Assembly (NCBI RefSeq): GCF_021725675.1
Contig: NZ_JAKJPO010000005.1
Location: forward strand, 154,965-218,964
Direction of reading: 5' to 3'
DNA: 64,000 bases
Source of the DNA: Marilutibacter chinensis
GTDB taxonomy: Bacteria; Pseudomonadota; Gammaproteobacteria; Xanthomonadales; Xanthomonadaceae
Below the pieces are notes generated by a model. That model had not been told where the DNA came from. It worked only from the letters and a program-made list of their open reading frames with translations, and did not search any database. A program made the translations under genes and the position numbers. Numbering within the stretch: the first letter of the stretch is position 1; every line of letters starts with the position of its first letter. Positions 62,707-62,809 of the stretch are shown piece after piece.

Positions 62707-62809
62707 CGTAGGAGCGGGGGGGGGGCGGCCCGCCCCCCCCCCCCAAGACGGCGGCGGGGGCCCCCCCCCCCCCCCACCGCCGGGGGTCGGGCCCCCCCCC
62801 GCTCCTACA
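62707..62809. repeat. atpG-atpD intergenic palindromic element rich in G/C homopolymer tracts (G10, C12, C15, C9) flanked by GTAGGAGCG / CGCTCCTAC inverted repeat
   Basis: Read directly: cgtaggagcgggggggggg cggcccg cccccccccccc aagacggcggcggggg ccccccccccccccc accgccgggggtcggg ccccccccc gctcctac; same terminal arms as 56596-56665 element. Confidence 0.6.

What the first reader, a model, noticed from the sequence alone, without database searches (positions are those of the whole stretch)
62707..62809. Homopolymer-laden palindromic element between atpG and atpD, related to the element after lpdA
The 143-bp atpG-atpD spacer contains G10, C12, C15 and C9 homopolymer runs flanked by the inverted repeat GTAGGAGCG...CGCTCCTAC. 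The same terminal arms (as a 22-bp perfect inverted repeat) occur at 56596-56665 after lpdA, so both look like copies of one REP/MITE-like family. Runs of 10-15 identical G or C are very unusual inside an essential, highly expressed operon. They can form G-quadruplex/i-motif structures and undergo slipped-strand length variation, which could modulate the atpD to atpG expression ratio. They are also classic sites of sequencing or assembly error.
Basis: seen in the sequence. Interest (0 to 1): 0.6.

Follow-up and report, generated by a model that had tools for sequence, protein, structure and literature searches.

The report
Poly-G/C assembly artefact over a REP hairpin
The G and C runs between atpG and atpD are most likely sequencing junk, produced when the sequencer lost signal inside an ordinary palindromic repeat (REPIN), so only the two repeat ends are believable and the feature is of quality-control interest only.

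Summary
The 143-bp atpG-atpD spacer of this Marilutibacter chinensis window holds G10, C12, C15 and C9, bracketed by GTAGGAGCG / CGCTCCTAC. These are the only runs of 8 or more in 64 kb, and the same heads bound an intact 68-bp REPIN after lpdA.

The homopolymer interior is very probably not real, although this window's reads could not be checked.

- **Relatives:** five Marilutibacter genomes have a conserved 66-67 bp spacer without the element.
- **Public genomes:** I scanned for GTAGGAGC+G7. In 58 of 130 matches, G/C junk runs from the REP head to a contig end within 165 nt. Four more run into N10 gaps; in the three inspected, the true REP resumes after the gap. About ten further elements are closed internally, like this one. 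More than 20 draft assemblies of Pseudomonas, Luteimonas, Luteibacter and other genera are affected.
- **Same-locus test:** the junk in Pseudomonas sp. S37 is an ordinary REPIN in two independent assemblies.
- **Symmetry:** the window element has little palindromic symmetry (DNA fold z -3.6, against -10.9 for the lpdA copy).

Best explanation: a genuine GTAG-type REPIN stalls sequencing-by-synthesis, dark cycles are called G on two-colour instruments, and the assembler stitched the tails together.

G-quadruplex or slippage regulation is unsupported. Raw reads or PCR-Sanger sequencing would settle it.

The parts
61833..62696 (+). atpG (ATP synthase gamma), upstream flank
   Evidence: Pfam PF00231, E = 4.6e-104. 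100% identical to the Marilutibacter chinensis gamma subunit P0001.
62697..62839 (+). atpG-atpD spacer, 143 bp. Five relatives have 66-67 bp here.
   Evidence: The unique flanks, CGGAATCCATC on the left and AACAAGATTAGAGAGTTCAGAGGAAACCAAA on the right, resemble (by eye) the relatives' spacer ends.
62708..62716 (+). Left REP head GTAGGAGCG. Believable sequence, read before signal loss.
   Evidence: The same head starts the intact REPIN at 56597 and ordinary REPINs in other genera.
62717..62799 (.). Interior of G/C junk (inner 85 nt between the heads, 62716-62800, 94% G+C), holding most of G10 and C9 and all of C12 and C15. Most likely miscalled or degraded reads, not genomic sequence.
   Evidence: One search gives the runs. 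One search places it in the junk class (GC 0.94, maximum run 15, against 0.56-0.82 and runs of 3-8 for ordinary REPINs). One search gives a DNA fold z of -3.6. Searches show the same pattern as an artefact in other assemblies.
62800..62808 (-). Right REP head in inverted orientation (CGCTCCTAC on the + strand). Believable sequence.
62828..62832 (+). GAGGA, the likely atpD ribosome-binding site, 7 nt before the ATG. It is untouched by the element.
   Evidence: Read from the sequence. A similar GAGGAAAC stretch sits at the same place in relatives.
62840..64000 (+). atpD (ATP synthase beta), cut by the window end
   Evidence: Pfam PF00006 (7.6e-71) and PF02874.
56596..56665 (.). Intact sister REPIN after lpdA: GTAGGAGCGGCGTAAGCCGCG ... 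CGCGGCTTACGCCGCTCCTAC
   Evidence: The DNA fold is -37.5 kcal/mol with z = -10.85. The inner sequence has GC 0.65 and a maximum run of 3.

Best explanation
A genuine GTAG-type REP doublet (REPIN) sits in the atpG-atpD spacer of M. chinensis. It belongs to the same family as the intact copy after lpdA. Its interior was not read correctly.

The proposed chain of events is:
1. The long G+C-rich perfect hairpin of the single-stranded template blocks or dephases sequencing-by-synthesis a few bases into the stem.
2. On two-colour Illumina instruments a dark cluster is called G. Reads entering from the left therefore become ...GTAGGAGCG + G-rich junk.
3. Reads entering from the right do the same on the other strand, which appears as C-rich junk + CGCTCCTAC on the + strand.
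4. The assembler joined these low-complexity tails, closing the contig with about 85 nt of G/C runs.

Only the two heads and the outer flanks are trustworthy.

**Shown here:**
- The pattern in the window.
- Its absence from relatives.
- The same head-plus-poly-G pattern at contig ends, N gaps and closed internal sites in many other drafts.
- A same-locus replacement of the junk by an ordinary REPIN in another species.

**Inferred:**
- That this window's interior arose in the same way.
- That the platform was two-colour.
- That the true interior resembles GGCGTAAGCCGCGA...

The real REPIN is probably a passive, RAYT-mobilised hitch-hiker. At most it acts as an mRNA hairpin within the atp transcript.
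For: - In 58 matches the G/C junk runs to a contig end within 165 nt.
   - The end distances cluster by assembly, as expected if read length or k-mer size limits the extension. They are about 39-66 nt in Pseudomonas sp. S37, 91-103 in the NPDC strains, 104-124 in Luteimonas MJ293 and 98-157 in Luteibacter sp. 621.
   - Four matches stop at N10 gaps.
   - Eighteen matches, about 10 elements, are internal and closed by GCTCCTAC.
2. **N-gap cases.** In the three I inspected, the true REP resumes after the gap. L053 reads GTAGGAGCG+G59+N10+GGCTTCAGCCGCGAGC...GCTCGCGGCTGAAGCCGCTCCTAC. L103 and L028 behave the same way.
3. **Junk and clean copies in one assembly.** The assemblies that carry junk also carry clean REPINs with a quite different stem. 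Luteibacter sp. 621 has GTAGGAGCGCGCTTGCGCGCGAT....
4. **Two classes of doublet.** Ordinary REPINs have inner GC 0.56-0.82 and maximum runs of 3-8. Fully junk doublets have GC 0.87-1.0 and runs of 15-40; three half-junk chimeras (L090, L120, L121) have GC 0.76-0.82 with runs of 15-19. The window's atp element (0.94, run 15) falls in the junk class, and the lpdA copy (0.65, run 3) in the ordinary class.
5. **Same-locus test.** Downstream of comF, Pseudomonas sp. S37 reads GTAGGAGCGG+G28+degraded bases. Two independent assemblies whose ComF is 95% (P0121) and 97% (P0142, over 86% of the query) identical read an ordinary REPIN there, GTAGGAGCGGCCTTGTGTCGCGA...TCGCGACACAAGGCCGCTCCTAC. The immediate flanks of L129 are identical to S37's, and L130's are nearly so.
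6. **Relatives.** Five Marilutibacter genomes or MAGs, with atpG 92-97% identical, have a conserved 66-67 bp spacer without the element. A sixth has an unrelated 154-bp spacer with no homopolymers.
7. **Symmetry.** Genuine REPINs fold with z about -10.8 as DNA. The window element reaches only -3.6, and its arms match only in the head plus the G/C run.
8. **Literature.**
   - On two-colour instruments G is the absence of signal, and signal dropout gives poly-G (PMC8002175).
   - Long inverted repeats fold the template and inhibit elongation in both read directions (PMC3141275).
Against: - No raw reads, second assembly or metagenomic copy of this locus could be obtained, so the case for this window rests on analogy.
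- The sequencing platform of the M. chinensis assembly is unknown, because the species paper is not held.
- The runs here (9-15) are shorter than in most artefact examples (30-100), and the contig is closed rather than broken.
- The lpdA REPIN of the same genome was assembled cleanly, so the failure is not universal.
- The scan pattern itself required a G run, so it cannot show how often REPINs are read correctly.
Confidence: 0.88

Rival explanations
1. The tracts are real. On this reading the element is a REPIN variant whose stems are G/C homopolymers. It sits inside the atp operon, can form G-quadruplex, i-motif or very stable hairpin structures, and can vary in length by slippage. That would modulate atpD expression relative to atpG.
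For: - The sequence record reads this way, and the contig is continuous.
- G10CGG / CCGC10 is a perfect 13-bp hairpin (I18).
- The RNA fold is -83.8 kcal/mol with z = -3.2.
- The runs are shorter than in typical artefacts.
Against: - None of six related spacers shows it.
- The same head followed by G/C runs is demonstrably junk in more than 20 other assemblies.
- The two arms are not inverted copies of each other beyond the head and the run.
- The fold is barely better than shuffles of the same composition, whereas real REPINs reach z of about -10.8.
- No other run of 8 or more exists in 64 kb.
Confidence: 0.07
2. The region is a tRNA-Leu(AAG) gene with a long variable arm, as called by ARAGORN at 62711-62806.
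For: ARAGORN output.
Against: - No tRNA match, nor any other Rfam match, appears at this position even at E up to 1 with permissive filters.
- By inspection, the predicted stems appear to be made of the REP heads and the G/C runs.
- The T-loop region reads GGGGGTCGGGCCCCC, with no TTC.
- Related genomes have no such gene in this spacer.
Confidence: 0.005
3. The element is an artefact of another origin, with no REPIN underneath. For example, a scaffold gap may have been filled wrongly by a gap-closing program, or reads may have been joined chimerically.
For: - Several affected assemblies are scaffolds with N10 gaps at exactly these sites.
- About 25 nt of the spacer that is conserved in relatives is missing from the window.
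Against: - Both heads abut unique flanks and sit in the correct inverted orientation.
- They are identical to the heads of the intact copy 6 kb upstream.
- In every resolved comparison, the junk overlies a real REPIN.
Confidence: 0.04

Closest known systems
Poly-G overcalling on two-colour Illumina chemistry (NextSeq, NovaSeq, MiniSeq), combined with sequence-specific stalling of sequencing-by-synthesis at inverted repeats
   Same: - G runs start where good sequence ends and appear as C runs on the opposite strand.
- They begin at the foot of a long inverted repeat.
- At contig ends they extend for about one read length or one k-mer.
- PMC8002175 states that G is the absence of signal and that dropout gives poly-G.
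- PMC3141275 shows that inverted repeats inhibit elongation in both directions.
   Different: - Here the junk is enclosed within a contig and made of alternating, fairly short G and C runs, not a terminal poly-G tail.
- My four literature searches on poly-G artefacts found no paper that links REP or REPIN hairpins to poly-G junk in deposited assemblies. One 2026 preprint that mentions both terms could not be read.
GTAG-tagged REP / REPIN elements mobilised by RAYT (TnpA-REP) transposases (PMC3733652, PMC2817692, PMC3337134)
   Same: - There is a GTAG head at the outer end of each arm.
- Two arms lie in inverted orientation, in an intergenic position.
- A second, intact copy lies 6 kb away.
- The same GTAGGAGC head is used by ordinary REPINs of Lysobacter, Luteimonas, Luteibacter and Pseudomonas.
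   Different: - The interior of the atp copy is not a palindrome as recorded.
- Copy number in the genome and the cognate RAYT gene could not be examined.
Phase-variable homopolymeric tracts (contingency loci of Neisseria, Haemophilus and Campylobacter; from general knowledge)
   Same: G or C runs of 9 to 15 nt are the length class that slips during replication.
   Different: - Contingency tracts are single tracts in promoters or the 5' coding regions of surface or restriction genes.
- They vary between strains and between reads.
- Here four tracts lie within 85 bp of an essential-operon spacer in a 69% G+C genome, no variation data exist, and the tracts are probably not real.
REP hairpins inside operons acting as mRNA stabilisers or attenuators (E. 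coli malE-malF type; reviewed in the references of PMC3733652)
   Same: If the underlying REPIN is real, it is transcribed within the atp operon mRNA and would form a very stable hairpin between two cistrons.
   Different: No expression data exist. The effect on atpG or atpD is untested, and relatives manage without the element.

Membership tests
GTAG-tagged REP / REPIN | An unpaired or terminal GTAG motif at the outer end of the palindrome | tested here: met
   GTAG lies at 62708-62711, and its complement CTAC at 62805-62808. The lpdA copy has the same at 56597 and 56661-56664.
GTAG-tagged REP / REPIN | A 20-40 bp imperfect palindrome follows the head, and two such REPs in inverted orientation form a long hairpin | tested here: inconclusive
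   The lpdA copy meets this (23-bp stem plus an inner hairpin, DNA fold z -10.85). The atp copy as recorded has symmetry only in the head plus the G/C run (z -3.6). Its interior is judged corrupted, so the feature cannot be assessed.
GTAG-tagged REP / REPIN | Extragenic location | tested here: met
   One copy lies between the atpG stop and the atpD start. The other lies between lpdA and the DUF2061 gene.
GTAG-tagged REP / REPIN | Many copies per genome (tens to hundreds) | not testable with these tools
   Only 64 kb of the genome is available, and it holds 2 copies.
GTAG-tagged REP / REPIN | A cognate RAYT (Y1 HUH transposase) gene, flanked by REPs, in the same genome | not tested
   None of the ten ORFs scanned around the two copies matches a transposase family: lpdA, DUF2061 and six atp genes were identified and two ORFs had no Pfam match. 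The rest of the window and the genome were not screened.
Two-colour poly-G read-tail / assembly artefact | A G run on the strand read away from good sequence, mirrored by a C run at the opposite border | tested here: met
   G10 follows the left head directly, and C9 directly precedes the right head.
Two-colour poly-G read-tail / assembly artefact | In other assemblies the same trigger sequence followed by poly-G sits at contig ends or gaps, about one read length from the end | tested here: met
   In 58 of 130 matches the junk reaches a contig end within 165 nt, and in 4 it reaches an N10 gap. End distances cluster by assembly.
Two-colour poly-G read-tail / assembly artefact | An independent assembly of the same locus shows ordinary sequence | tested here: inconclusive
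   This is met for the class: Pseudomonas sp. S37 against L129 and L130. It could not be done for this window, because no second M. chinensis assembly or metagenomic copy was found. Relatives lack the element altogether.
Two-colour poly-G read-tail / assembly artefact | Low base quality or dark cycles in the raw reads, and a two-channel instrument | not testable with these tools
Phase-variable homopolymer (contingency) locus | Tract-length polymorphism between strains or within read pile-ups | not testable with these tools
   There is only one assembly, and no reads.
tRNA gene | A match to the tRNA covariance model, with conserved D and T loops | tested here: not met
   The permissive Rfam scan of 56000-64000 returned only a sub-threshold mir-485 match on the lpdA REPIN, and nothing at 62711-62806. 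The ARAGORN call appears, by inspection, to rest on pairing of the REP heads and the G/C runs.

The most novel reading that the evidence does not exclude
The G10/C12/C15/C9 tracts are genuinely present. That would make this a REPIN derivative with homopolymeric G/C stems inside the essential atp operon. It could switch between hairpin and G-quadruplex or i-motif forms, or vary in length by slippage, to tune beta- against gamma-subunit expression.
Probability: 0.07. Interest if true: 0.6.

Novelty: not a real feature. Interest (0 to 1): 0.1.

Why it matters
**For the biology of this genome, very little.**
- What is probably there is one more copy of a known kind of selfish palindromic repeat.
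- It inserted in an operon spacer that relatives keep short.

**The practical value is in quality control.**
- The head-plus-poly-G signature was found in more than 20 GTDB representative assemblies from at least seven genera. It appears at contig ends, at scaffold gaps and, more insidiously, closed inside contigs.
- Such sites can be mistaken for G-quadruplex motifs, phase-variable tracts, tRNA genes (ARAGORN did so here) or new repeat families.
- They also remove real REPINs from repeat censuses.
- A simple screen would flag them. It would look for a REP head followed by at least 9 G, or an interior of at least 90% G+C between inverted REP heads.

Tried and rejected
**Searches for an independent copy of the locus, all negative:**
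1. An exact-protein look-up of the window's atpG and of the identical P0001 found nothing on record. No second assembly or Logan assembly of M. chinensis is therefore reachable.
2. Two metagenome scans with the unique left flank plus head, and with the right flank, gave 0 hits.
3. The species description (Liu et al. 2022, PMID 35699855) was sought for the sequencing platform but is not held.

**Readings considered and rejected:**
4. The ARAGORN tRNA-Leu call at 62711-62806 was rejected, because Rfam gives no tRNA match and relatives have no such gene.
5. The Rfam mir-485 hit on the lpdA REPIN scores 36 bits against a gathering score of 70. It is hairpin mimicry, not a bacterial miRNA.
6. I tried reading the junk as a degraded copy of the family arm GGCGTAAGCCGCGA.
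   - The reverse complement of the right arm, G9CCCGA, is loosely compatible if A, T and C were miscalled as G.
   - The match is too weak to use as evidence.
7. I considered whether the 10-nt direct repeat CTACAACAAG (62624 and 62805) marks a target duplication.
   - One copy lies inside atpG, 181 nt away, and overlaps the REP head.
   - REPINs are not known to make target duplications, so I treated it as chance.

**Not done:**
8. Four literature searches on poly-G artefacts, two of them aimed at hairpins or REPs, found no description of the REP-triggered effect. One preprint that mentions both terms could not be opened.
9. A RAYT search was not attempted beyond the ORFs scanned next to the two copies.

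Full report
**1. Checking the observation**

atpG ends with TGA at 62694-62696 and atpD starts with ATG at 62840, so the spacer is 143 bp.

Inside the spacer, GTAGGAGCG (from 62708) and CGCTCCTAC (62800-62808) bracket four runs: G10 at 62716-62725, C12 at 62733-62744, C15 at 62761-62775 and C9 at 62792-62800. Each head occurs only once more in the 64 kb, at 56597 and 56656. There the heads continue as a perfect inverted repeat just after lpdA.

The rest of the window is 69% G+C, and its longest G or C run is 7, seen once. Run counts fall about five-fold per added base. Four runs of 9 to 15 within 85 bp are therefore not a chance property of this genome.

**2. Organism and gene context**

- The gamma subunit is 100% identical to that of Marilutibacter (formerly Lysobacter) chinensis.
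- Pfam confirms lpdA (54765-56570), a DUF2061 gene on the minus strand, atpB, atpE, atpF, atpA and atpG, and the first 387 codons of atpD.

**3. Relatives lack the element**

I fetched the same locus from six relatives:

| Locus | Source | atpG-atpD spacer |
|---|---|---|
| L001 | M. alkalisoli (atpG 97% identical) | 66 bp |
| L126 | M. spongiae | 67 bp |
| L127 | M. aestuarii | 67 bp |
| L128 | Lysobacter sp. SG-8 | 67 bp |
| L004 | MAG | 67 bp |
| L003 | MAG | 154 bp, unrelated, no homopolymers and no GTAGGAGC |

The first five share a conserved spacer, roughly TGA-CCCACAACCCATTCCCGCGGGCGCAGGTCGCGACCGCACGC-AAGCTTAAAGTTACGAGGAAACAACC-ATG. The outer ends of the window's spacer resemble this by eye. 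The middle is occupied by the 101-bp element. The element is therefore lineage-specific.

**4. The decisive lead: the public-genome scan**

I sorted the matches by what follows the head.

| What follows GTAGGAGC+G7 | Matches |
|---|---|
| Ordinary sequence (chance matches, plus a real Pseudomonas REP variant with a genuine G7) | 47 |
| G/C junk, often a pure G run of 30 to over 100 nt, running to the contig end within 165 nt | 58 |
| Junk running into an N10 scaffold gap | 4 |
| Internal junk closed by GCTCCTAC, as in the window (about 10 elements) | 18 |
| Internal junk, other | 3 |

- **End distances:** the distance from head to contig end clusters by assembly. It is about 39-66 nt in Pseudomonas sp. 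S37, 91-103 in two NPDC strains, 104-124 in Luteimonas MJ293 and 98-157 in Luteibacter sp. 621. That is what extension limited by read length or k-mer size would give.
- **Spread:** more than 20 draft assemblies or MAGs are affected. They come from Pseudomonas, Luteimonas, Luteibacter, Lysobacter, Arenimonas, Pseudoxanthomonas and Microbulbifer.
- **Gap cases:** in the three I inspected, the true sequence resumes after the Ns. L053 reads GTAGGAGCG + G59 + N10 + GGCTTCAGCCGCGAGC...GCTCGCGGCTGAAGCCGCTCCTAC. L103 and L028 behave alike.

**5. Two further tests of the artefact class**

*Doublets fall into two classes.* I collected every GTAGGAGC...GCTCCTAC doublet in all fetched DNA.
- Ordinary REPINs have inner G+C of 0.56-0.82, longest runs of 3-8 and clean arm symmetry.
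- Fully junk doublets have G+C of 0.87-1.0 and runs of 15-40. Three half-junk chimeras (L090, L120, L121) have G+C of 0.76-0.82 with runs of 15-19.
- The ordinary class includes clean copies in the very assemblies that carry junk. Luteibacter sp. 621, for example, has GTAGGAGCGCGCTTGCGCGCGAT...
- The window's lpdA copy (0.65, run 3) is ordinary. Its atp copy (0.94, run 15) belongs to the junk class.

*Same-locus comparison.* Downstream of comF, Pseudomonas sp. S37 reads GTAGGAGCGG + G28 + a stretch of degraded bases + GCTCCTAC. Two independent metagenome assemblies, whose ComF is 95% (P0121) and 97% (P0142, over 86% of the query) identical, read something different at the same place. They show an ordinary REPIN, GTAGGAGCGGCCTTGTGTCGCGA...TCGCGACACAAGGCCGCTCCTAC. 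The immediate flanks of L129 are identical to S37's, and L130's are nearly so.

*Fold statistics agree.* As single-stranded DNA, the lpdA REPIN and the Pseudomonas REPIN fold with z of -10.85 and -10.68 against shuffles. The window's atp element reaches only -3.63. Its apparent stability comes from composition and not from palindromic design.

**6. Mechanism**

Two parts rest on the literature:
- On two-colour Illumina instruments G is the absence of signal, and signal dropout gives poly-G (PMC8002175).
- Long inverted repeats fold the single-stranded template and inhibit elongation in both read directions (PMC3141275).

The inferred chain for this window is as follows:
1. A REPIN with a perfect G+C-rich stem of 20-25 bp stalls synthesis a few bases into the stem. 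The lpdA copy folds at -37.5 kcal/mol as DNA.
2. The cluster goes dark or noisy, and the base caller emits G with some C.
3. Reads from the two sides give head + G-rich junk and C-rich junk + head.
4. The assembler then either stops (contig ends), leaves a gap (N10) or bridges the two tails (closed junk).

The window is a case of the third outcome.

**7. What is really there**

Both heads abut unique flanks in the correct inverted orientation. They are identical to the heads of the intact copy 6 kb upstream. The most likely true content is therefore an ordinary GTAG-tagged REPIN.

This family is described as being recognised and cleaved at the GTAG by RAYT transposases (PMC3733652). REPs are commonly hypothesised to act in mRNA stabilisation or in attenuation within operons. 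Whether this copy does so in the atp transcript is untested. The atpD ribosome-binding site (GAGGA, 62828-62832) is untouched.

**8. Rival explanations**

- **The tracts are real, with G-quadruplex or slippage regulation (0.07).** The arguments against are the relatives, the lack of arm symmetry and the demonstrated artefact class.
- **A tRNA-Leu(AAG) gene, as called by ARAGORN at 62711-62806.** I reject this. A permissive Rfam scan finds no tRNA there, the stems appear to be the REP heads and the G/C runs, and relatives have no such gene.
- **An artefact with no REPIN underneath (0.04).** This is unlikely given the intact heads.

**9. Limits**

- I could not obtain reads, a second assembly or a metagenomic copy of this locus.
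- I could not establish the sequencing platform.
- The verdict for this particular window therefore rests on analogy, although the analogy is strong and multi-pronged.
- The runs here are shorter than in most artefact examples.
- The lpdA REPIN of the same genome was read correctly, so failure at REPINs is not universal.
- Genome-wide copy number and the cognate RAYT gene were not examined.

**10. Verdict**

The homopolymer-laden interior is most probably not a real feature (confidence about 0.88). The underlying REPIN is an already known kind of element. Biological interest is low. The useful by-product is a recognisable contamination signature in public draft genomes, which can masquerade as G-quadruplex motifs, phase-variable tracts, tRNA genes or new repeat families.

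Noticed in passing
L006-L125 (public draft genomes; for example L009 1-46, L040 3270-3373, L057 7624-7708, L053 5695-5831): Poly-G or G/C junk starts right after the REP head GTAGGAGC. It was seen in more than 20 GTDB representative assemblies from at least 7 genera: at contig ends (58 matches), at N10 gaps (4) and closed inside contigs (about 10 elements). It is a systematic contamination signature of REPIN hairpins in short-read assemblies.
   Followed up: yes
L088 2360-2461, against L129 2139-2260 and L130: A same-locus comparison downstream of comF. The Pseudomonas sp. S37 assembly has G28 plus degraded bases. Two independent assemblies have a clean REPIN there. In the degraded stretch many A and T positions differ, mostly reading as G or C.
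   Followed up: yes
window 62711-62806: ARAGORN calls a 96-nt tRNA-Leu(AAG) on the junk element. It is a false positive that appears to rest on pairing of the REP heads and the G/C runs. Rfam finds no tRNA there.
   Followed up: yes
window 33187-33331: ARAGORN reports a tRNA-Lys(TTT) at 33187-33261 (minus strand). It is directly abutted by a 'tRNA-???' with a two-base anticodon at 33260-33331. This could be a second tRNA with an unusual anticodon loop, or a miscall.
   Followed up: no
window 56596-56665: The intact REPIN after lpdA gives a sub-threshold Rfam match to the animal mir-485 precursor (36.4 bits against a gathering score of 70, E = 3e-5). This is hairpin mimicry and an example of how REPINs attract spurious RNA-family hits.
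   Followed up: partly
window 62624-62633 and 62805-62814: An exact 10-nt direct repeat, CTACAACAAG. One copy lies inside the 3' end of atpG. The other spans the right REP head and its flank. It is probably chance.
   Followed up: partly
L001 4715-4736 (M. alkalisoli): A single REP of the same head family, GTAGGAGCGCCCTCGGGCGCGA, overlaps the lpdA stop codon (AAGTAGGAGC). This is the position at which M. chinensis has its full REPIN. The site after lpdA may be a recurrent REP landing place in the genus.
   Followed up: partly
L001 4915-4980; L003 2910-2935; L004 5490-5515: Short tandem repeats occur in intergenic spacers of relatives. A repeated unit GCATTCAGGCGAACC (about four to five copies) lies between lpdA and the DUF2061 gene of M. 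alkalisoli. CCCCATT and GTGATTG repeats lie in the atpD-atpC spacers of two MAGs.
   Followed up: no
L035, L079, L085, L096, L098, L062 (Pseudomonas): A genuine REP variant carries a real G7-G8 run. It reads GTAGGAGCGGGGGGGACGCCTAGTTCCATGCCCGCGA and recurs with near-identical sequence in at least six independent genomes. It is paired with a partner arm that lacks the GGGGACGCCTAGTTC insert. It shows that modest G runs next to the head can be real.
   Followed up: partly
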